Both the position numbers and the translations under genes were made by a program. From Phycisphaerales bacterium (GTDB lineage: Bacteria > Planctomycetota > Phycisphaerae > Phycisphaerales > UBA5793), in assembly GCA_044229655.1 (NCBI GenBank), contig JBGASM010000015.1:35950-99949 (forward strand): a stretch of 64,000 nucleotides of DNA, in the 5' to 3' direction. Positions 34,857 through 42,898 of the stretch are shown piece after piece. Numbering within the stretch: the first letter of the stretch is position 1; every line of letters begins with the position of its first letter. Below the pieces are notes generated by a model that searched no databases, had not been told where the DNA came from, and saw only the letters and a program-made list of their open reading frames with translations.

Positions 34857-34973
34857 CGCGGAAAGAGAAGAAAGACGGAGTGTGGCGGAACGAATTCGCT
34901 TGGGCGATATACACAAGCAATATAGTGCGTGAAATCGCGAGTCAGCCCACGGTGTAGTTGAGGAGAGAAAGAC

Positions 34974-36629
34974 ATGCAATCGTCCAGATACCAGTTGGCT
35001 CTTTTATTCGCAAATGTCTCTACGGCAGTCTTGTGCCCGACTCTCGCCGTCCGCATGGCATCTGCCGGCGACTTCAACGGCGATGGGTATGACGATGCCG
35101 CTCTCGGCGTCTCCGGCGATTCCCTCTTGGCGCCCCAGTCTGGTGCTGTCCAGATCATCTATGGATCGCGAATTGGGCTTAGCGTCGTTCGCTGTGATGA
35201 GATCTCCACAACCACCATTCGTCAAGGCGCTAATGGCGCGCCGGACCAGTCTGAGCAAGGCGACTGGTACGGACAGACTTTGGCGTGTGGCGATTTTGAT
35301 GGCGATGGCTTTGATGATCTCGCTGTGGGTGATTTCGCGGAGGATCTTGATAGTGTCGTTCATGCCGGTGCGGTACATGTGTTTTACGGATCGCCACTCG
35401 GACTGCGGTCCGACCGCTCACAGAATTGGCATTACGGGCCTAACAGTCTTGGAGGCGTACCTCTTCCTGGCGATCAACTCGGATGGGCCCTTGCGGCTGG
35501 CGATTTTAATGGTGATGAGATCGATGATCTCGCCATGTCCGTACCGTACAAAGATGTGGGTTCTGCCACAAATGCAGGACTCATCCACGTACTCTTTGGT
35601 TCGCAAACATTTGGTCTGACATCCGCTGGCATGCAGGATGTCACTCAAGACTCCCCCGGTGTGCCGGATCTCTGCGAAGGTGACGATTGTTTTGGACTAT
35701 CGCTCACGGCAGCCGATTTTGATGCTGATGGGTTTACCGATCTGGTCGTTGGAGTCCCTTGCGAGGACATAGGCCAGAATCGGAACTGTGGCGCAATTAA
35801 TGTGGTGTTTGGAAGCTCGTCCGGCCTTGCAGCACGAGGACAATTCTTCACACAGGATTCAACGCAGATACTTGACAAGGCCGAGCAGGACGACCTCTTT
35901 GGTCAGTTCCTGTGCGCGTCCAATCAGTACGAGACCTCAATCAACGGTGATGCTTTTGCCGACCTGATCATCGGCATCCCATTTGAGGAAACCGTGGATG
36001 GCGTCGGCAACTCCGGGGCGGTGGCCGTCCTCTTCGGTGCTGCGACCGGTCTTGCTGTGGCCGGAAATCAATTCTGGACGCAGGACAATCCCGACGCAGT
36101 CGACTCCGTCGAGAAGGACGATTATTTTGGATGGGCAGTGTCAATCGGTGATTACGACGCCGACGGATTCTCTGATGTCGCTATTGGGGTTCCCCAGGAA
36201 AGTTTCCCTTCGTCGAAGGATGATGTACATTATTCAGGTCGCTCCCAGAATTACTTCGGCAACTCAAATCAATGCGGTGCTGTCGCCGTGGTCATGGGTA
36301 GTCCCACCGGACTTTCTTCTCGCAATCTACTTCTCTATCAGGGTTCCCCTGGGATGGGCGGCCAACCAGGCCCTTATGAGTGGTTCGGATACTCCCTTTC
36401 CACATCACGACGCTCTTTCAATGACGATGAATACAGCGACCTCCTCATTGGCGCCATTCATGACAACTCCCCGCCTGCGTATCGCGCTGCTGGCGGCATG
36501 CATGTGCTGTATGGCACAACGCTCGGACTTGATCCGACTCGGAGCCGATTCTTCGATAGGAGCGGCGCCGGCATGGATGGGGTGGTCGGCACAGGAGATC
36601 TCTTCGGGTCCCCGGTCCTCGGCGATTAA
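34974..36629 (+). CDS. Secreted FG-GAP (integrin-alpha/VCBS-type) repeat protein, atypical codon usage
   Basis: 551 aa, with GAGGAG upstream and a signal peptide. At least 7 repeats of the GDFNGDGYDD / GDFDGDGFDDLAVG / ADFDADGFTDLVVG type. Asp, Phe, Gly and Ala are mostly encoded GAT/TTT/GGT/GCT, unlike the neighbouring genes. Confidence 0.9.
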   Translation: MQSSRYQLALLFANVSTAVLCPTLAVRMASAGDFNGDGYDDAALGVSGDSLLAPQSGAVQIIYGSRIGLSVVRCDEISTTTIRQGANGAPDQSEQGDWYGQTLACGDFDGDGFDDLAVGDFAEDLDSVVHAGAVHVFYGSPLGLRSDRSQNWHYGPNSLGGVPLPGDQLGWALAAGDFNGDEIDDLAMSVPYKDVGSATNAGLIHVLFGSQTFGLTSAGMQDVTQDSPGVPDLCEGDDCFGLSLTAADFDADGFTDLVVGVPCEDIGQNRNCGAINVVFGSSSGLAARGQFFTQDSTQILDKAEQDDLFGQFLCASNQYETSINGDAFADLIIGIPFEETVDGVGNSGAVAVLFGAATGLAVAGNQFWTQDNPDAVDSVEKDDYFGWAVSIGDYDADGFSDVAIGVPQESFPSSKDDVHYSGRSQNYFGNSNQCGAVAVVMGSPTGLSSRNLLLYQGSPGMGGQPGPYEWFGYSLSTSRRSFNDDEYSDLLIGAIHDNSPPAYRAAGGMHVLYGTTLGLDPTRSRFFDRSGAGMDGVVGTGDLFGSPVLGD

Positions 36630-36688
36630 TTCACTGCTGGCCATATTCTCCTCCCCGTTGACGCGGTCGCGCTCACTCATTCACTTAA

Positions 36689-36925
36689 ACAGCCCTCCGC
36701 TCCCCCCGCGCCCTCGGCTCCCAGGTCATCCCCCCCTCCTACGCCTGCGCCGGCACGTCCCTGGGCCTGGCCAACAACCACCTCCAGATCGCCTACACCG
36801 GCCCCGCAGGCACCTTCGGCGCAACCTCCCTCAAGTCCCGCGTTCCCGCCTCAATATGTAATACCTACCTCCAGCTCCTCGACATCACCTCCTGCCAAAC
36901 CTCCAACGTCGTGCAGATTCAATAA
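36689..36925 (+). pseudogene. Start-less remnant of the shared C-terminal beta-module (native C3 codon bias)
   Basis: Own translation of the frame ending at TAA 36923-36925 gives ...SYACAGTSLGLANNHLQIAYTGPAGTFGATSLKSRVPASICNTYLQLLDITSCQTSNVVQIQ*. It aligns with the tail of the NHL protein (GCPGTAVGIAAARVIGSARADEAGDASITINVPETLRGTPLYVQAVDRTACSASGALPVTFK*). There is an in-frame stop at 36686 and no start codon. Confidence 0.6.
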
Positions 36926-37187
36926 ACTCTCCGCTCTCTCCTCCCACCCAACCTCCGCCCATCGCCTGCCGTCCGATGGCGCTTCCTCATCGCGCCCCAC
37001 CGCGCTGCGCGCCGCTCCGCTTCCCCTCGAAGTTCATCGCCGCGCTGCCTCCTCCCGCCTCCTCTTCCCCGCCGGACGACCGCGCGCAGAACTGTGGCGC
37101 AGCCAAAAGCAAATCCAAAATCCCGGATTTCCCGGCGCGCGCACCAGCCTGATACACCCCTTGTTATCGCGGACCCACAAGCGCGCG

Positions 37188-37241
37188 AAAACCTGCCAAA
37201 ACTCGCGAAAACTCAGCAAAACTCAGGCAAACCCGTCTAAA
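37188..37241. repeat. Six helically phased A-tracts (unit AAAAC[CT]Y, 10-11 bp period)
   Basis: A3-4 runs start at 37188, 37198, 37208, 37218, 37229 and 37239, in sequence GAAAACCTGCCAAAACTCGCGAAAACTCAGCAAAACTCAGGCAAACCCGTCTAAACCC. The surrounding 0.56 kb has no credible ORF. Confidence 0.85.
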
Positions 37242-37486
37242 CCCTGCTGCCGGAAACCCCCCTCCCCCCGATCTCCCCCCCGTTTCACTCCCATTCCCGC
37301 AAGAGTGCTGACAAAACTTCTTTTCCTTGCTCTCAGCGCTCTCCTCCGTGCGCACCAACGCGCTCTTGTGGTCCTCCCCCATGCGCACACTCCCACCCCC
37401 TCATAACGACTTACATCACCGCGTTCGCCCCCCCTCCCTCCCCCTCTCCCTCCCCCTTCTCCCGTCCCTCCCTACCCTCGCATCCT

Positions 37487-38701
37487 GTGACCACCCTCGA
37501 ACAGAGAATCTGCGCTCACCTCGCCGCCCGCCACGATGCCATGGTCGCCGACCTCGCAGCCCACGTCGCCATCCCCACCGGCACCGGCCACGCCCCCGGC
37601 ATTAAAGCCTACCGCAACCTCCTCATCGACAGGCTGATGCGCCTCGGCGCCCGCGTCGACCGCCACCCCGGCCAGCCCCGCCCCGACTGGCTTGACCCGA
37701 CTCCGCGCGCTCCCGCCGCGGACATCCCCGACACCGTCACCTGCGCCTGCCGCGGCGGCGCGGGCAAGCGCATTCTCCTCGCCGGGCACGTCGACACCGT
37801 GCACGATCCCTTCGGCCCTTTTCAAACTCTGCAGATCTCCGCCGACGGCGCGCGCGCCGTCGGCCCCGGCTGCGCCGACATGAAGGGCGGCAATTTAATT
37901 GCGCTGCACGCGCTGGAGGCGCTGGCGGCGGAAAACGTGAAAATCGACTGGACGTTTCTTCTCAACGCGGATGAGGAGACGGGGTCTTATCACTCCGCCG
38001 AAGCGCTGCGGGCGCAGGCGAAACAGCACGACATCGGCCTGGCCATGGAGCCGGCCCTGCCGGGGAAAGCAAACTTGGAGAGCGCGCTGGCGGTGGCGCG
38101 CATGGGCAGCGGCCACTTCCGATTCGATGTGCGCGGAAAATCGGCGCACGTGGGCCGCGACTTCAAGAGCGGCGTGTCGGCGGTGGCGGAACTGGCGCGG
38201 ATCATCACGCGCGTGAGCAGCGCGAGCGATCCGGATCACGGCCTCATTGTCAACGTGGGGCCGCTCAAGGGCGGCAGCGCGGTGAACATCGTGCCTGACT
38301 CGGCGGCGTGCTGGGGCAACGTACGCTTCGAGACTCCGGCCGATGCGCAGCGCGCCGTTGCGACGCTGGAGGAACTGGCCACATCCGGGCCGGACGCACT
38401 TCCTGCCGTTTCCCTGCGCCGGGTGTGGTCGCGGCCGGCCAAGCCGCTCACGCCCGCGGTGCAGGGGATTGTCGATGTCATCCAACGGACGGGGGCTGAT
38501 CTGGGGCAGCGCATAACACCGACCTCGACCGGGGGAGTGTGCGATGGAAACATCCTTCAAGATGCCGGATTGCCTACGATTGACACGCTGGGCGTCCGCG
38601 GCGGCGGGACGCACACACCGCAGGAATGGATTGATCTGCCAAGTCTGGTCGAGCGTGCACAGTTGCTCGCCATTGTCATTCTGAGACTTGCGCATTCCTG
38701 A
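37487..38701 (+). CDS. M20-family metallopeptidase / deacylase (carboxypeptidase G2 / DapE-ArgE-like)
   Basis: 404 aa with GTG start. Motifs GHVDTVH, GPGCADMKGG and NADEETGS. The ORF is continuous across the composition switch at about 37,890. Confidence 0.9.
   Translation: MTTLEQRICAHLAARHDAMVADLAAHVAIPTGTGHAPGIKAYRNLLIDRLMRLGARVDRHPGQPRPDWLDPTPRAPAADIPDTVTCACRGGAGKRILLAGHVDTVHDPFGPFQTLQISADGARAVGPGCADMKGGNLIALHALEALAAENVKIDWTFLLNADEETGSYHSAEALRAQAKQHDIGLAMEPALPGKANLESALAVARMGSGHFRFDVRGKSAHVGRDFKSGVSAVAELARIITRVSSASDPDHGLIVNVGPLKGGSAVNIVPDSAACWGNVRFETPADAQRAVATLEELATSGPDALPAVSLRRVWSRPAKPLTPAVQGIVDVIQRTGADLGQRITPTSTGGVCDGNILQDAGLPTIDTLGVRGGGTHTPQEWIDLPSLVERAQLLAIVILRLAHS
37890..37902. repeat. 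13-nt AT-rich palindrome GCAATT-T-AATTGC at the strand-composition junction
   Basis: Read directly from the sequence. It is formed by the codons GGC AAT TTA ATT GCG (G-N-L-I-A) of the M20 gene. AAT, TTA and ATT are A/T-ending codons that are rare elsewhere in this window. Confidence 0.9.
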
Positions 38702-38825
38702 CGACCCGTTCAGAAACCTAATAAAGACGTCGCCGACATTCCGCAATGTTTGGCCTCCTTACCAACCGATCCCCTTACATCACCGCCAGTTGATTCTCCA
38801 GCCGCAAACTGAATGTGAGTCTGCC

Positions 38826-40343
38826 ATGACCCCCACCGCGACTTCCGCCGCCCCCGCTTCATCCACCGTTTCTTCTTCCTCCTCCTGCGCCACCAATTCC
38901 TGTTCCTGCGGTGTGACGGGAACGATTGCGCACAGCATGCATACGAACCCGGTCATTGACCAAGCCATCGAGAAGATCGTGGGCGAGATGGACAAGCAGA
39001 AGGCGCGAATCACGGGCGTGCGCCCCGCGCTGGACGCAGCGCATGAGGCGCGGCTGGTGGACATGCTCAAGCAGGCATGCACGGTGCGCGGGCGGGACCG
39101 GCTGTATTACGACTACATCGGCTCGGGGATCGGCAACGGGCCATATGTTGAAATGGCGGACGGGTCGGTCAAACTCGATCTGATCTGCGGCATCGGCGTG
39201 CATTTCTTCGGGCATTCGGATTCCCAGGCTGCGGCGACGGGTCTGCGGGCCGCGCTGGCGGACACGGTGATGGCGGGCAACCTGCAGGCCAATCACAACG
39301 TCACGGAGTTTGCGCAGGTGCTGCTGAACCAGGCGGCCAGGAGCAGCAGACTCGCGCATGCGTATCTCATCAACGGCGGGTGCATGGCCAATGAGAACGC
39401 CATCAAGATCTGCTACCAGAAGAACGCGCCGGCGAACCGCGTGATCGCTTTCGAGCATTGCTTCATGGGGCGGAGCGTGACAATGTGCCAGATCGGCGAC
39501 AACGCAGCCAACCGCGTGGGCATTCCGCTGTCGACGCTGGTGGATTACATGCCGTTCTACGACCCGGAGATGGGGACGAAGTCGATTGATTACTGCGTCA
39601 AGCGCCTCGAGGAGTACGTCGCCCGGTATCCGAAGCAGCATGCATGCTTCATCTTCGAACTCATCCAGGGTGAGGGCGGCTTCAACAGCGCGCCGCGCGA
39701 GTACTTCACAGCGCTCATGGACATCTGCAAAGCCAACGGCATCGCAGTGTGGGATGACGAAGTGCAGACGTTCGGCCGGACCGGGGAGTTTTTCGCCTTT
39801 GAGAAGTTCAACCTCGGTCAGTATGTGGATGTATGCACGATCGGGAAGATGAGCCAGGTGTGCGCCGCGTTGTACACCAAGGATTACAACCCCAAGGCGG
39901 GGCTGCTGTCGGCGACGTTCATCGCATCGGCGCAGGAAATCGAAGTGGGCACGCTGTATCTCAAGCGGCTGCTGGGAAGCGGCCTGTACGGCGCGAACGG
40001 GTTGATTGAGAAGCACCACCGCCGGTTTGTCGAGGGGGTCAACGCGCTGAAGGCGAAGCACCCCACCTGGTTCCCGCCGGTGTCCTATCACGGACACACG
40101 TTCACCAACACGCCGATCGCGGGAGGCGTGGGGGGAATGATGCGCTTCACGCCTTTCGGCGGGGACAAGCAAAAGGTCACCGACCTGCTGCAGGTGATGT
40201 TCAAGGAAGGCATCATCGGCTTCTACGCGGGCCACGGCCCGTATCACGTGCGCTTCCTGCCGCCGCTGGGCGTAATGGACCTGGCCACGTGGGACGTCGC
40301 GTTTGACCTGCTGGAACGTTCCATGGCCAAGATCGCGAACTGA
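38826..40343 (+). CDS. Class-III PLP-dependent aminotransferase (ArgD/AstC-like)
   Basis: 505 aa from ATG 38826; an alternative start at ATG 38937 would remove a Ser/Cys-rich leader. It has DEVQTFGRTG and a candidate Schiff-base lysine region (TIGKMSQ). Confidence 0.85.
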   Translation: MTPTATSAAPASSTVSSSSSCATNSCSCGVTGTIAHSMHTNPVIDQAIEKIVGEMDKQKARITGVRPALDAAHEARLVDMLKQACTVRGRDRLYYDYIGSGIGNGPYVEMADGSVKLDLICGIGVHFFGHSDSQAAATGLRAALADTVMAGNLQANHNVTEFAQVLLNQAARSSRLAHAYLINGGCMANENAIKICYQKNAPANRVIAFEHCFMGRSVTMCQIGDNAANRVGIPLSTLVDYMPFYDPEMGTKSIDYCVKRLEEYVARYPKQHACFIFELIQGEGGFNSAPREYFTALMDICKANGIAVWDDEVQTFGRTGEFFAFEKFNLGQYVDVCTIGKMSQVCAALYTKDYNPKAGLLSATFIASAQEIEVGTLYLKRLLGSGLYGANGLIEKHHRRFVEGVNALKAKHPTWFPPVSYHGHTFTNTPIAGGVGGMMRFTPFGGDKQKVTDLLQVMFKEGIIGFYAGHGPYHVRFLPPLGVMDLATWDVAFDLLERSMAKIAN

Positions 40344-40410
40344 CGATCGCCTGCGAATCACAGTCGTTCCGACTTCTATTCCTCACTGACACACAGATCC
40401 CGGGTGCTCC

Positions 40411-41535
40411 ATGTTTGTGATCCGTCAGACGCGCATCGATGACCTGCCCATCCTCCTCAAACTGGCGCGGATGGTGCACTTCATCAACCTGCCGGCGGAC
40501 AAGGACATCATCACAGGCAAGATCGAACGCTCGGAACAGTCCTTCGGCGGGAAGATCGGGAACCCCACGCAGGGCCTGTACATGTTCGCCATTGAGGATG
40601 ACGAGACGGGCAATCTGCTGGGAACGTCGCAGATCATCGCGAAGATGGGCACGCCTGAATCGCCTAACACATATTTCGAGGTGGGCACGCGTGAGTTTTA
40701 CGCGGATGACCTGCGACAGGGGTGTCGGCACACGACGCTCAAACTGGGCGCGGAACGGGACGGGGGAAGCGAAGTGGGCGGGCTCATCCTGCAGCCTTCA
40801 TTCCGCGGGCATCCGTCGCGACTGGGCAAATCCCTGTCGCTCATCCGGTTTCATTACATCGGCCTGCATCGGGAGCGATTCGCGGATGAACTGATTGCGG
40901 AAATGATGGCCCCGCTGACGCATGAGGGAACCAACGCGCTGTGGGAGTACCTGGGTCGTCGGTTCATCAACCTGACCTATGACGAAGCGGATCGGCTCTC
41001 GACCAAGTCCAAGGCGTTCATCCTGGACCTGATGCCGAGGGAGGAAATCTACGTTTCCCTGCTGCCGCCCGAAGCGCGGATCATCATCGGGCAGGTAGGC
41101 AAGGACACTGAACCTGCGAAAGCGATGCTTGAGAAGATGGGTTTTGAGTACCGCAATCACATCGATCCGTTTGACGGCGGGCCGCACCTGCACGCGCGGA
41201 CGGGAGATGTCACGGTGATCCGGGACACCCGCCGGGTCACGCTGAAGGGTGCGTGCGGCAAGGGGCAGGCGGGCGGAGAGGCGCTGGTTTCATTTGAGAG
41301 CGAAAGCGGATTCCGCGCGCTGCGGACGGAGCTTGCGCTTTCGGGCGGAAGCGGGGACATCCTGCTTCCCAAGCCGGTGATGGCGGCGCTGCAAGCCGAG
41401 CCGGGCGCGACGGTGGGTCTGACGCTGCTGGCGCACCCGAACCGAGGGACGAAGCGGGGCGGCAGCGCGAAGGGCAAGGGGAATGCAGGGTCCAAGCGGA
41501 CCAAGGGGCGGAAGGCAGTCGGGCAGGGCGCGTAA
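40411..41535 (+). CDS. Arginine N-succinyltransferase (AstA)-family acyltransferase with basic C-terminal tail
   Basis: 374 aa. It is colinear with E. coli AstA as I remember it (MxVIRP..., ...GQVH/GKDTxPAxAxLEKxGFxYRNxIDxFDGGPxL). It has an extra Lys/Gly-rich tail KRGGSAKGKGNAGSKRTKGRK. Confidence 0.85.
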   Translation: MFVIRQTRIDDLPILLKLARMVHFINLPADKDIITGKIERSEQSFGGKIGNPTQGLYMFAIEDDETGNLLGTSQIIAKMGTPESPNTYFEVGTREFYADDLRQGCRHTTLKLGAERDGGSEVGGLILQPSFRGHPSRLGKSLSLIRFHYIGLHRERFADELIAEMMAPLTHEGTNALWEYLGRRFINLTYDEADRLSTKSKAFILDLMPREEIYVSLLPPEARIIIGQVGKDTEPAKAMLEKMGFEYRNHIDPFDGGPHLHARTGDVTVIRDTRRVTLKGACGKGQAGGEALVSFESESGFRALRTELALSGGSGDILLPKPVMAALQAEPGATVGLTLLAHPNRGTKRGGSAKGKGNAGSKRTKGRKAVGQGA

Positions 41536-41596
41536 GCCGGGAGCGGGGGAATTCCGCGCTGATGCGGAAGGGGCGATCACCATATCATCGCCCCCA

Positions 41597-42898
41597 ATGC
41601 CCGCACTCTTCATCACCAACGGTCGACTCATCGACCCAGCGTCCGGCCTGGATGAGACTGGCGATCTCGTCATCAATGACGGCAGGGTGGTTCAGGTCGG
41701 AGGGAAAGCCAAGCCTGCCAAGGGAGCGACGGTCATCGATGCGCGGGAGCGGATCGTGACGCCCGGGCTTATTGACCCGCATGTGCATCTGCGCGAGCCG
41801 GGCAAGGAAGAGGCGGAGACAATCGCATCGGGCGCGGCGGCGGCGGTCAGCGGGGGATTCACGACGGTGTGCTGCATGCCCAACACCACGCCCGCGCTGG
41901 ATCATCCCGCGATGATCGACTCGGTGTATCGCAGGGCGGACCTGGCAGGGCAAGCGCGGGTGTTTCCGGTGGCGGCGGTGACGAAAGGGAGGAAGGGGAC
42001 GGAACTGGCGGAGATCGGGCTGATGGCGGCGGCGGGTGCGGTGGGGTTTTCAGATGATGGGGACTGCGTGGAATCGCCGGCGGTGCAGCGGCGCGCGTTC
42101 CAGTTCATCAAGCAGGCGGGATCGGTCATGATGCAGCATTGTCAGGACCGGTCGCTCACGCAGGGCGGGGTCATGAATGCGGGACCGACGGCGATGCGGA
42201 TGGGGCTGACGGGTTGGCCGGCGGTGGCGGAGGAGATGGTGATTGAGCGGGATGTGCGGCTGAATCGCGACATCGGATGCCGATACCACGTGCAGCACAT
42301 GAGTTGTGCAGGGTCGGTGGAGATTGTGAGGCGGGCGCGGGCGGAGGGACAGCCTGTGACGGCGGAGGCGTCGCCGCACCACCTGCTGCTGACGGATGAG
42401 GCGTGCCTGGGGTACAACACGAACGCGAAGATGAATCCGCCGCTGCGCGCGATGCGGGATGTCGAGGCGCTGCTGGAAGGCGTTGCGGATGGAACGATCA
42501 CGGTGTTGGCGACGGATCATGCGCCGCACACGCGGGAAGCGAAGGACCTGGAGTTTGATGCAGCACCGTTCGGGATTGTGGGAATCGAAACGGCGCTGGC
42601 GCTGTATGTGAAGGCGCTGGTGGAGCCGAAGATCATCGACTGGCCGAGGCTGATTGCGCTGCTGACGGTCGAGCCGGCGAAACTGTGCGGGCTGGACCGG
42701 GAACCGTGGGGCCTGGGAAGGCTGGCGGTGGGGGGGCGTGCGGATGTGACAGTGATTGATCCGGATGCGGAGTGGACGATTCGCGCGGCGGAGTTCAAGA
42801 GCAAGTCGCGCAACACGCCGTTTGAGGGGTGGACAGTGCGTGGGAGGGCGGAGGCGGTCATTGTGAACGGGGTTGTCAAGATGGGTGGTCCGCACTGA
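41597..42898 (+). CDS. pyrC: Dihydroorotase (class I, allantoinase-like)
   Basis: 433 aa from ATG 41597. Metal-ligand motif GLIDPHVHLREPG, and a later ATDHAPH segment. Confidence 0.9.
   Translation: MPALFITNGRLIDPASGLDETGDLVINDGRVVQVGGKAKPAKGATVIDARERIVTPGLIDPHVHLREPGKEEAETIASGAAAAVSGGFTTVCCMPNTTPALDHPAMIDSVYRRADLAGQARVFPVAAVTKGRKGTELAEIGLMAAAGAVGFSDDGDCVESPAVQRRAFQFIKQAGSVMMQHCQDRSLTQGGVMNAGPTAMRMGLTGWPAVAEEMVIERDVRLNRDIGCRYHVQHMSCAGSVEIVRRARAEGQPVTAEASPHHLLLTDEACLGYNTNAKMNPPLRAMRDVEALLEGVADGTITVLATDHAPHTREAKDLEFDAAPFGIVGIETALALYVKALVEPKIIDWPRLIALLTVEPAKLCGLDREPWGLGRLAVGGRADVTVIDPDAEWTIRAAEFKSKSRNTPFEGWTVRGRAEAVIVNGVVKMGGPH

What the first reader, a model, noticed from the sequence alone, without database searches (positions are those of the whole stretch)
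36926..37486. 0.56-kb ORF-free tract with phased A-tracts, a small palindrome and a polypyrimidine run, 400 nt from the skew switch
860 nt separate the FG-GAP stop (36629) from the M20 start (37487). After subtracting the domain remnant (36689-36925), 560 nt remain with no credible ORF; the track ORFs here are Pro/Arg/Ser-rich. This is unusually long for this tightly packed window. The tract contains six A3-4 tracts with 10-11 bp phasing (37188-37241, unit AAAAC[CT]Y). It also contains an upstream A-tract group overlapping the palindrome AAATCC-C-GGATTT (37118-37130). Directly before the GTG start there is a run of about 60 nt that is almost pure pyrimidine (about 37428-37486). Established: helically phased A-tracts bend DNA and are enriched at origins and upstream of strong promoters. 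Long mirror-like polypyrimidine runs can form triplex (H-) DNA. Inference: this is a candidate origin-associated or architectural regulatory region. An iteron-like protein-binding array or an unrecognised small RNA are alternatives.
Basis: partly seen in the sequence, partly recalled or inferred. Interest (0 to 1): 0.6.

Follow-up and report, generated by a model that had tools for sequence, protein, structure and literature searches.

The report
Repeat element marking strand-bias switches
The gene-free tract is one copy of a bent, about 340-450-base DNA repeat that sits, always in the same orientation, just before dozens of sharp flips in DNA strand composition in this bacterium and a related genus, which is the pattern expected if the chromosome starts copying at many sites rather than one.

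Summary
The tract has no credible ORF. It holds four AAAAC tracts spaced exactly 10 bp apart, plus three AAAC tracts, the palindrome at 37118-37130 and a 92% pyrimidine run.

The tract is not unique. Window 36976-37429 is one of 18 copies of a non-coding repeat family in this 3.65-Mb Phycisphaerales genome.

The genome's GC skew is a sawtooth, with sharp upward jumps and gradual declines. Third codon positions of genes on both strands follow it.

Every repeat copy lies just 5' (in its own orientation) of an upward jump, or at a contig end. The flip falls about 0.1-0.8 kb past the copy's 3' end by change-point fitting; here codon third positions place it at about 37.9 kb, roughly 480 bp past that end and inside the M20 gene.

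The phased A-tract array is the module shared by all sub-families. It is the most curved site predicted in the window.

A homologous repeat in another genus shows the same link: G006 has at least 32 copies, and 18 of 18 tested show it.

Best reading (about 0.5): an origin-like cis element in a chromosome with many initiation sites.

The polypyrimidine run is not a family feature.

It did not note the repeat or the sawtooth.

The parts
36976..37429 (+). One copy of the dispersed repeat family (nhmmer extent). The well-aligned core is 37084-37421.
   Evidence: blastn between copies gives 70-96% identity over about 330 bp. Iterated nhmmer finds 18 full or near-full copies plus one fragment. The alignment is A1. 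The sequence-only model R1 scores this copy 250 bits.
37094..37145 (+). 5' module, TGGCGCAGCCAAAAGCAAATCCAAAATCCCGGATTTCCCGGCGCGCGCAC. It includes the palindrome at 37118-37130 and a GCGCGCAC site.
   Evidence: Most columns are invariant among the 11 main-sub-family copies. 48 of 48 bases are identical to the sister strain, where M20 third positions are only 83.5% identical.
37188..37257 (+). Helically phased A-tract array: 4 x AAAAC at exactly 10 bp, then AAAC at +11, +10 and +15. It is an intrinsically curved, iteron-like array.
   Evidence: It is the only segment shared by blastn between the two sub-families. It is also present in the genus-g2 homologues. It has the highest predicted curvature in the window. 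63 of 66 bases are conserved in the sister strain.
37246..37296 (+). C-run insert (CCCCCCTCCCCCCGATCTCCCCCCC...), present only in the C2, C24, C45 and C7a copies.
   Evidence: Alignment A1, columns 179-208.
37297..37421 (+). 3' module. It holds the GCAAG...CTTGC inverted repeat, GTGCGCAC (37348-37355), ATGCGCAC (37381-37388) and the end motif AACGACTTAC (37405-37414).
   Evidence: Alignment A1. GTGCGCAC occurs 109 times in the genome, and 25 of those lie inside the elements, which make up about 0.2% of the DNA. 107 of 124 bases are identical to the sister strain, which is close to the neutral level.
37424..37486 (+). Polypyrimidine run (92% C+T). It is locus-specific low-complexity DNA and not part of the repeat.
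   Evidence: Only 11 such runs exist genome-wide, and 2 of them adjoin an element. Against the sister strain, 30 of 39 aligned bases match and there is a 26-nt indel.
37850..37930 (.). The GC-skew up-switch (C-rich to G-rich on the + strand), inside the intact M20 peptidase gene 37487-38701. It lies about 480 bp 3' of the element's end.
Evidence: Fine skew profile and third-codon-position counts.
36692..36925 (+). Remnant of the 3' end of an FG-GAP_2 gene that is intact in the sister strain (L038 4857-6527).
   Evidence: 92.7% identity.
34858..36691 (+). Replaced cassette: a low-GC, skew-neutral FG-GAP gene. The sister strain carries a different 3.6-kb segment here. This is an example of the DNA turnover seen next to the elements.
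   Evidence: Native-type gene coverage and GC content both dip within about 4 kb of the elements genome-wide.

Best explanation
The tract is a copy of a conserved, oriented, non-coding DNA element. Its parts are a 5' module, a curved 10-bp-phased A-tract array, and a 3' module rich in GTGCGCAC-type sites.

I propose that the element acts in cis as the fixed site where a bidirectional, strand-asymmetric DNA synthesis process starts. The most likely process is chromosome replication. On this reading, proteins assemble on the bent array and its flanking sites, and the two leading strands diverge a few hundred bases to about 1-2 kb downstream of the element's 3' end. In this window that point is about 37.9 kb.

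Several dozen such sites per chromosome, firing with different efficiencies, together with forks that meet at variable places in between, would produce the observed sawtooth: sharp upward jumps and gradual declines in GC skew.

Shown: the family, its anatomy, its orientation rule, its link to up-switches in two genera, and the fact that the skew does not depend on gene strand.

Inferred: that the skew reports fork direction, and that the element causes initiation rather than merely marking it.
For: 1. The skew is mutational and strand-wide. Third-position GC skew on the + strand is -0.4 to -0.67 for genes of both strands left of the switch, and +0.2 to +0.6 right of it.

2. The skew is a genome-wide sawtooth. 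Sharp up-jumps outnumber sharp down-jumps 16:1 at a threshold of 0.3 and 28:4 at 0.25. There are 33 cumulative-skew minima with a median spacing of 75 kb.

3. The genome holds 18 copies. 14 lie 0.06-2.0 kb from one of the 33 minima, always with the minimum on the element's 3' side. 3 copies are cut by contig starts, and 1 lies 2.3 kb from a contig start with its switch 573 bp 3'. By my own arithmetic, the chance that one random site lies that close to a minimum is about 4%, and the orientation agreement (15 of 15) has a chance of about 3e-5.

4. In the change-point fits the flip lies -120 to +830 bp from the 3' end in all internal copies but this one, five of them at 224-259 bp; this copy's fit gave +1492, pulled by a counter-skew patch at 38.7-38.9 kb, and codon third positions put its flip about 480 bp 3'. 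The sequence at the flip itself is unrelated between copies.

5. Element-bearing switches dominate their neighbours. The zero-crossing lies at fraction 0.21-0.35 of the interval in 6 of the 7 intervals where only the right-hand switch has an element (0.69 in the seventh, C33). It lies at 0.54 and 0.87 when only the left-hand one has, and at 0.50 when both have. This is as expected for stronger or earlier origins.

6. The flanking genes are unrelated between copies and lie on either strand, so the element is not a leader or promoter of one gene family.

7. The locus is conserved in a sister strain.

8. Independent replication in genus g2. A homologous 420-440-bp repeat with the same anatomy is present. 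G006 has at least 32 copies and G001 at least 30. Of 18 G006 copies tested, 18 have higher skew on the right than on the left, and 17 change sign from negative to positive. In the two copies examined at 1-kb resolution, the flip lies 1-2 kb on the element's 3' side. AT skew flips the opposite way, which is the classical G>C, T>A leading-strand signature.

9. The same logic (upward skew jumps at initiation sites, and a linear decline that reflects fork polarity) is established for human skew N-domains (PMC3320577).
Against: There is no direct replication evidence.

Multi-origin chromosomes have not been described in bacteria, as far as I know and in the library searches.

No DnaA-box cluster exists in the element or anywhere in the assembly. 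dnaA and its paralogue are not next to any copy.

19 of the 33 up-switches lack the element, and some of those are equally sharp. One lies in a 137-bp convergent gap. So the element is not necessary for a switch.

Gene orientation follows the skew only weakly, with 54% of genes on the G-rich strand. Highly expressed loci split 6 co-oriented to 3 head-on.

In G000 the AT skew has almost no domain component.

Two G006 copies do not fit: L123 shows no sign change, and for C5:1060899 the switch lies 8 kb on the 5' side.

The assembly is a 46-contig MAG.
Confidence: 0.5

Rival explanations
1. The element nucleates a strand-asymmetric process that is not replication. Candidates are a site-specific nick or break followed by long-range strand-displacement or repair synthesis, recombination-dependent synthesis, or very long divergent R-loop-forming transcription. 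Such a process would expose opposite strands on the two sides and decay with distance.
For: The sawtooth and the oriented element require only a fixed, bidirectional, distance-decaying source of strand asymmetry. No classical origin signals are present. Gene co-orientation with the skew is weak. DNA turnover and strain divergence are concentrated next to the element, as might be expected at a recombination or break hot spot.
Against: By my own reasoning, simple 5'-3' resection from a break predicts the opposite skew polarity, because the 3'-tailed strand would lose C. Transcription of annotated genes leaves only a small coding-strand effect, and that effect has the opposite sign (C3>G3). Asymmetry reaches 30-50 kb symmetrically on both sides and is balanced around zero, as for forks. 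In G006 the G-rich side is also T-rich, as on leading strands.
Confidence: 0.2
2. The element is a passenger. It is a mobile or gene-converted repeat that inserts into, or survives only at, sites that already are switch points (initiation sites or domain boundaries), in an orientation dictated by the local fork direction. It does not cause the switch.
For: 19 of 33 up-switches have no copy, and some of those are just as sharp. Copies are 70-96% alike and fall into sub-families, as in a proliferating repeat. The flanks are insertion hot spots. The 3' module evolves near neutrally between strains.
Against: No transposase of the strand-specific Y1 or TnpB type is present. I saw no terminal inverted repeats at the aligned ends. 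Element-bearing switches dominate element-less neighbours. The 5' module and the array are conserved within the family, between strains and across genera. The tight spacing to the flip, always on the 3' side, holds in two genera.
Confidence: 0.15
3. The skew polarity is inverted in this clade, so that the leading strand is C-rich. On this reading the elements are polar fork barriers or termination sites, and the broad transitions are diffuse initiation zones.
For: The elements are oriented, as Ter sites are. The sharp transitions are point-like while the opposite transitions are broad.
Against: To my knowledge, G>C on the leading strand holds in all bacteria studied. Genes, the rRNA operon on C34, rpsB-tsf and dnaA lie on the G-rich strand more often than not. 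In G006 the G-rich side is T-rich, which is the usual leading-strand signature. A single polar element cannot stop forks arriving from both sides.
Confidence: 0.05
4. The tract is an ordinary feature: the promoter or 5' UTR of the M20-aminotransferase-AstA operon, a small-RNA gene, a decayed gene, or an assembly artefact.
For: The tract lies directly upstream of the M20 start codon. The region 36692-36925 is indeed a gene remnant.
Against: The same element lies next to unrelated genes on either strand. No sigma-70-type promoter-like site was found. There is no Rfam match. The predicted structure is sparse and essentially without covariation. Indels between copies are not multiples of three. 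An independent metagenome assembly has the same locus. Orthologous operons in other genera lack any such upstream tract-linked skew.
Confidence: 0.05

Closest known systems
Skew N-domains and 'master' initiation zones of mammalian genomes (PMC3320577; PMC2764438)
   Same: Sharp upward skew jumps at fixed sites, and a gradual decline through zero to the next jump. In mammals the skew is independent of gene strand after correction, and it is interpreted as a gradient of fork polarity between initiation sites. The window genome shows the same shape.
   Different: Here the organism is a bacterium. The domains are about 50-100 kb rather than about 1 Mb, and the amplitude is 5-10 times larger (GC3 skew about 0.5). 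About half of the jumps carry a defined, oriented sequence element, which mammalian zones lack.
Bacterial oriC (DnaA boxes, DUE, GC-skew minimum)
   Same: It sits at a cumulative GC-skew minimum with the usual polarity. It is non-coding, contains relatively AT-rich segments and bent DNA, and the flip lies within a few hundred bases to 1-2 kb.
   Different: There are many copies per genome. There is no DnaA-box cluster. It is not next to dnaA or dnaN. There is no sequence similarity to any plasmid or phage record.
Archaeal multi-origin chromosomes (Sulfolobus, Haloferax; ORB elements next to orc1/cdc6)
   Same: Several origins per prokaryotic chromosome, each defined by repeated protein-binding elements.
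   Different: Archaea have 3-4 origins, each beside its initiator gene. Here there are dozens, no adjacent initiator gene, and no Orc1/Cdc6 winged-helix domain in the genome.
Iteron arrays and phased A-tract bends of plasmid and phage origins (lambda ori, pSC101, R6K) and 10-11-bp centromere repeats (R1 parC)
   Same: Short direct repeats on one face of the helix and strong intrinsic curvature. The array is flanked by palindromic sites.
   Different: The repeat unit is 10 bp (A4C plus 5 variable bases) rather than 17-22 bp. There is no adjacent rep or par gene. The element is chromosomal and dispersed. Protein binding has not been tested.

Membership tests
Bacterial oriC (DnaA-dependent chromosomal origin) | Cluster of DnaA boxes (TTATCCACA-like 9-mers) | tested here: not met
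   With at most 1 mismatch there are 274 sites genome-wide, 2 of them perfect. The one loose cluster (3 one-mismatch sites, C42) is not at a skew switch, none lies in the element, and there is no enrichment at skew minima (9 observed against 12 expected). The clade's true DnaA box is unknown.
Bacterial oriC (DnaA-dependent chromosomal origin) | Lies at the GC-skew up-switch (cumulative skew minimum) | tested here: met
Bacterial oriC (DnaA-dependent chromosomal origin) | One per chromosome, usually linked to dnaA or dnaN | tested here: not met
   18 copies are present. dnaA is at C15:30.7 kb and its paralogue at C23:14.7 kb, and neither contig holds a copy.
Bacterial oriC (DnaA-dependent chromosomal origin) | Supports autonomous replication, or is the site of bidirectional fork divergence | not testable with these tools
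   This needs a bench assay or read-depth data.
Skew N-domain borders (replication initiation sites inferred from sawtooth skew) | Sharp upward jumps, gradual declines, and skew independent of gene strand | tested here: met
   The same holds in G006.
Iteron-type plasmid or phage origin | Array of direct repeats with an adjacent rep initiator gene | tested here: not met
   A direct-repeat array is present. However, no protein gene is conserved next to the copies, and there is no plasmid or phage similarity.
Archaeal-type origin (ORB plus Orc1/Cdc6) | Orc1/Cdc6 initiator encoded in the genome or beside the origin | tested here: not met
   PF09079 was not found in G000.
Intrinsically bent A-tract DNA | At least 4 A-tracts in phase with the helical repeat, with high predicted curvature | tested here: met
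   The tracts have exact 10-bp spacing.
Structured non-coding RNA | Match to a known family, or a conserved structure with covariation | tested here: not met
   There is no Rfam hit at E<=10 on either strand. RNAalifold gives 29 pairs in 342 columns, a covariation term of -0.42 and only 2 compensatory pairs. Only the + strand of the alignment was folded.
MITE or IS200/IS605-derived repeat (PATE) | Terminal inverted repeats or end hairpins, plus a cognate transposase in the genome | tested here: not met
   No Y1 transposase and no TnpB were found. The aligned ends show no inverted-repeat relation. Target-site duplications were not examined systematically.
H-DNA or triplex-forming mirror polypyrimidine tract | A long homopyrimidine run as a conserved part of the element | tested here: not met
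   A run is present here (37424-37486), but only 2 of 18 copies adjoin one. It is variable between strains.

The most novel reading that the evidence does not exclude
Members of an uncultured Phycisphaerales family replicate their chromosome from several dozen origins, roughly one per 75-140 kb. Many of these origins are specified by a dispersed, oriented, intrinsically bent DNA element, of which the tract at 36976-37429 is one copy. Forks meet at variable positions between origins, as in eukaryotes. This would be the first natural multi-origin bacterial chromosome and the first sequence-defined family of such origins.
Probability: 0.4. Interest if true: 0.97.

Novelty: categorically new. Interest (0 to 1): 0.88.

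Why it matters
Textbook bacteria copy each chromosome from a single origin. Multiple origins are regarded as a trait of archaea and eukaryotes.

This genome and a sister genus carry a sequence-defined element at dozens of origin-type strand-composition switches, and they show the sawtooth skew that in mammals marks replication initiation zones. If these are origins, bacteria have independently evolved multi-origin replication with stochastic termination. The element would then give a direct handle (cloning, pull-downs, ChIP of the two DnaA paralogues) on how it is specified.

If they are not origins, then some other unknown element-nucleated process imposes one of the strongest strand asymmetries seen in a bacterium (third-position GC skew about 0.5). 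That would matter for mutation models and for skew-based origin prediction and assembly checking in Planctomycetota.

Tried and rejected
- Rfam scan of 35.5-39 kb on both strands: only noise.
- RNAalifold on 11 copies: no covariation support.
- Sigma-70 promoter scan: nothing.
- tRNA scan: nothing.
- DnaA-box scan: no cluster in the element or at a skew switch, only one loose cluster elsewhere.
- Orc1/Cdc6, Y1 transposase and TnpB: absent.
- Two DnaA paralogues looked like a lead, but they occur throughout the order.
- Conserved neighbouring proteins: none.
- blastn of the element against 40 relatives, plasmids and phages: nothing. A profile was needed to reach genus g2.
- Exact-pattern scans of genome contigs and metagenome contigs: chance hits only.
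- Polypurine/polypyrimidine runs as a family feature: rejected.
- GCGCAC-cluster scan: not specific.
- Other repeats shared by the 19 element-less minima: none.
- The palindrome copy near dnaA (C15:29469) lies inside a coding region and is probably chance.
- Linear versus step fit of the declines: equally good, R2 0.76 against 0.74, so the declines are broad rather than strictly linear.
- Orientation of highly expressed genes: uninformative.
- G013, from another family: no clear sawtooth.
- G003: weak multi-switch skew, no element in 400 kb.
- A period 9-11 tandem-repeat listing added nothing.
Full report
**Observation**

- AAAAC occurs at 37188, 37198, 37208 and 37218, exactly 10 bp apart. 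AAAC follows at 37229, 37239 and 37254.
- The palindrome AAATCC-C-GGATTT is at 37118-37130.
- The run 37424-37486 is 92% pyrimidine.
- No ORF longer than 81 aa lies between 36926 and 37486.
- Rfam gives nothing at E<=10, ARAGORN finds no tRNA, and there is no sigma-70-type promoter match.
- The flanking genes are an FG-GAP protein (34974-36629) and an M20 peptidase (37487-38701), followed by a class-III aminotransferase and an AstA homologue.
- Third codon positions of M20 give G3:C3 = 22:99 up to 37906, and G3 >= C3 from 37907 on.

**The genome context changes the question**

The window is G000:C2:35950-99949, in a 3.65-Mb, 46-contig assembly that is 96.7% complete. Its relatives are uncultured Phycisphaerales MAGs.

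In 5-kb bins the GC skew of every large contig is a sawtooth. It jumps abruptly from about -0.3 to +0.3 and then falls gradually back to -0.3.
- With 4-kb arms, sharp up-jumps outnumber sharp down-jumps 16:1 at a threshold of 0.3 and 28:4 at 0.25.
- There are 33 cumulative-skew minima. The median distance between neighbouring minima is 75 kb.
- Many contigs begin with strongly positive skew or end with strongly negative skew, so further jumps probably lie in assembly gaps.

The skew is not caused by gene orientation.
- Third-position skew on the + strand is -0.4 to -0.67 for genes of both strands left of the window's switch, and +0.2 to +0.6 right of it.
- Genome-wide, genes of both strands track the local skew. 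There is only a small coding-strand offset, and only 54% of genes lie on the G-rich strand.

**The tract is one copy of a dispersed repeat**

Arrays of at least 3 AAAAC at 10-bp spacing occur 12 times in the genome. Every one lies 0.5-2 kb from a skew minimum or at a contig end.

The DNA around these arrays is homologous over about 330 bp at 70-96% identity. Iterated nhmmer finds 18 full or near-full copies plus one 100-bp fragment. The window's copy is 36976-37429, with its core at 37084-37421.
- 14 copies lie 0.06-2.0 kb from one of the 33 minima.
- 3 copies are cut by contig starts (C12, C17, C44).
- 1 copy lies 2.3 kb from a contig start (C28).
- In every evaluable case the switch is on the element's 3' side and the AAAAC strand is the C-rich strand.
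- Change-point fits place the flip -120 to +830 bp from the conserved 3' end motif (AAGGACTTAC) in every internal copy except this one. Five copies are at 224-259 bp. This copy's fit gave +1492, pulled by a counter-skew patch at 38.7-38.9 kb. Codon third positions put its flip about 480 bp past the end.
- The sequence at the flip itself is unrelated between copies.
- The neighbouring genes are unrelated and lie on either strand.

By my own arithmetic, a random site lies that close to a minimum about 4% of the time. The orientation agreement (15 of 15) has a chance of about 3e-5.

**Anatomy (alignment A1)**

- The A-tract array follows it.
- A variable stretch follows. In four copies, this one included, it contains a C-run insert.
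- The 3' module has a GCAAG...CTTGC inverted repeat, two GTGCGCAC-type palindromes and the end motif.
- GTGCGCAC occurs 109 times in the genome. 25 of those lie inside the elements, which make up about 0.2% of the DNA.

A second sub-family (C28, C33, C34, C36) has a different 5' half that includes the palindrome TGTTCCACGTGGAACA. It shares only the A-tract array with the main sub-family.

That palindrome (TGTTYCACGTGRAACA) has 7 full copies in the genome. 3 are in sub-family-2 elements, 3 are at up-switches that lack the element (C7:13372; C26:28722 and 29686), and 1 is inside a coding region.

A wedge-model calculation (parameters from memory) makes the array the most curved site of the whole 64-kb window. 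It gives 77 degrees, against 52 for the 99.9th percentile, which equals a synthetic (A6CGGC)x10 control. 14 of 17 copies exceed the window's 99.9th percentile under one of the two sign conventions.

RNAalifold finds a sparse structure with essentially no covariation. Indels between copies are not multiples of three. A structured RNA or a small protein is therefore not supported.

The polypyrimidine run lies outside the repeat. Only 2 of the 11 such runs in the genome adjoin an element.

**Behaviour of the switches**

- Where only one of two neighbouring switches carries the element, the zero-crossing of the decline usually lies nearer the element-less one. The fractions are 0.21-0.35 in 6 of the 7 intervals where only the right-hand switch has an element (0.69 in the seventh, C33), 0.54 and 0.87 when only the left-hand one has, and 0.50 when both have. 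Element-bearing switches therefore control more territory.
- The declines are broad, with plateaus followed by 20-40-kb transitions. Linear and step models fit equally well.
- Within about 4 kb of the elements the skew is attenuated. Native-type gene coverage and GC content also dip there. In the window this corresponds to a low-GC, skew-neutral FG-GAP cassette (34858-36691) that is replaced by other DNA in the sister strain.
- 19 up-switches lack the element and share no other repeat. Some are equally sharp, and one lies in a 137-bp convergent gap.

**Conservation**

An independent metagenome contig is about 97% identical overall (JGI 3300013121, Ga0172278_1481; L038). It has the element at the same locus with the array intact.

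Divergence between the two strains is uneven.

| Region | Identity to sister strain |
|---|---|
| Aminotransferase, AstA and pyrC, third positions | 98-99% |
| M20, third positions | 83.5% |
| Element 5' module | 48/48 |
| A-tract array | 63/66 |
| Element 3' module | 107/124 |
| Polypyrimidine run | 30/39, plus a 26-nt indel |

blastn does not find the element in 40 relatives, in plasmids or in phages. Exact-pattern scans of public contigs gave only chance hits.

A sequence-only covariance model of A1 (R1) does find weak matches in another genus (g2) of the same family.
- These matches are a homologous 420-440-bp dispersed repeat. It has the same parts: GCGCGCAC/GTGCGC sites, a phased A-tract array such as CCGAAAACGCAGAAAAACGCGCGAAAACTCC, a C-run, and in G010 an ..GACTTACC end.
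- By blastn G006 has at least 32 copies and G001 at least 30.
- I centred 18 G006 copies in 20-kb loci. In 18 of 18 the skew is higher on the right than on the left, and in 17 of 18 it changes sign from negative to positive.
- In two copies examined at 1-kb resolution, the flip lies 1-2 kb on the element's 3' side.
- In most loci the AT skew flips the opposite way, so the G-rich side is T-rich. This is the classical leading-strand signature.
- Five further copies in G008, G009 and G010 show the same polarity at lower amplitude.
- Two G006 copies do not fit: L123 and C5:1060899, whose switch lies 8 kb on the 5' side.

Skew around the orthologous M20-aminotransferase-AstA operon is about zero in G004, G008 and G010. 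This particular switch is therefore not ancient, and the high amplitude is specific to the window's genus.

**Interpretation**

An upward GC-skew jump is the signature of diverging leading strands. A sharp jump followed by a gradual decline is how fixed initiation sites with variable termination appear in mammalian skew N-domains (PMC3320577).

The simplest reading is that these Phycisphaerales chromosomes have many initiation sites and that the element is a cis-acting origin-like module. On that reading the bent array and its flanking sites assemble the initiation complex, and synthesis diverges a short distance downstream. I put this at about 0.5.

Arguments against:
- There is no DnaA-box cluster in the element, and only one loose cluster elsewhere.
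- There is no linkage to dnaA or its paralogue. The two paralogues occur throughout the order and so explain nothing specific.
- Gene co-orientation with the skew is weak.
- Many switches lack the element.
- I found no report of a multi-origin bacterium or of sawtooth skew in Planctomycetota.

Rivals:
- An element-nucleated process that is not replication (0.2).
- A passenger repeat that targets existing switch sites (0.15).
- Polar fork barriers under an inverted skew polarity (0.05).
- An ordinary promoter, UTR, sRNA or artefact (0.05).

**Verdict**

The tract belongs to a previously undescribed, conserved, oriented repeat family that marks origin-type strand-composition switches in two genera. 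Whatever the mechanism, I know of no described bacterial counterpart. The decisive test is a read-depth (marker-frequency) profile.

Noticed in passing
G000 C7:13372; C26:28722 and 29686; C33:131224; C34:64368; C36:162789; C15:29469: The 16-bp palindrome TGTTYCACGTGRAACA has 7 full copies in the genome. 6 of them lie at skew up-switches: 3 inside sub-family-2 elements and 3 at switches that lack the element. The seventh lies in a coding region. Each half resembles a DnaA-box core (TGTTCCAC against TTATCCAC).
   Followed up: partly
window 37487-38701 compared with 38937-42895 (L038): Divergence from the sister strain is very uneven. M20 third positions are 83.5% identical, while the three genes downstream are 98-99% identical. 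This suggests either an imported recombination tract or locally raised mutation next to the element and switch.
   Followed up: partly
window 34858-36691 (L038 2730-6293): A low-GC, skew-neutral FG-GAP cassette here replaces a different 3.6-kb segment of the sister strain. Genome-wide, the 4 kb around the elements is depleted in native-type genes and has lower GC, which points to insertion hot spots.
   Followed up: partly
G000 C15:30693 and C23:14688; 40 relatives: Two full-length DnaA paralogues, each with the AAA+ domain and the C-terminal DNA-binding domain, occur in nearly every genome of the order. On some complete chromosomes they lie about half a chromosome apart (G021, G025).
   Followed up: partly
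G000, whole genome: Only 2 perfect TTATCCACA boxes are present in 3.65 Mb. The only cluster of near-matches (3 sites, C42) lies away from the skew switches, and none is near dnaA.
   Followed up: yes
G000 C1:103040-103549 (contig end): An array of about 21-bp repeats (..TTGTGCGCCT..) is followed by long C-runs, and then, at the very end of the contig, by G-runs. This may be another kind of switch region cut by the assembly.
   Followed up: no
G000 C11:42278-42341: The C11 copy of the element carries a 64-nt polypurine run on the element strand. This is the opposite polarity to the window's polypyrimidine run.
   Followed up: no
window 38702-38915: A counter-skew C/T-rich patch lies right of the switch. 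It shifts the formal cumulative-skew minimum to about 38.9 kb, and it was noted earlier as e1-3203690.
   Followed up: no
G000, all called genes: Independently of the domain skew, coding strands have C3>G3 (about 0.065) and T3>A3 (about 0.17). The domain-level AT skew is almost nil in G000 but clear in G006.
   Followed up: partly
G000 C38, about 150 bp 3' of the element at 102919-102522: The sequence downstream of this copy looks like a tRNA gene (GGAGTGGCGGAACTGGCAGACGC...GGTTCGACTCCCAC). It was not checked with ARAGORN.
   Followed up: no
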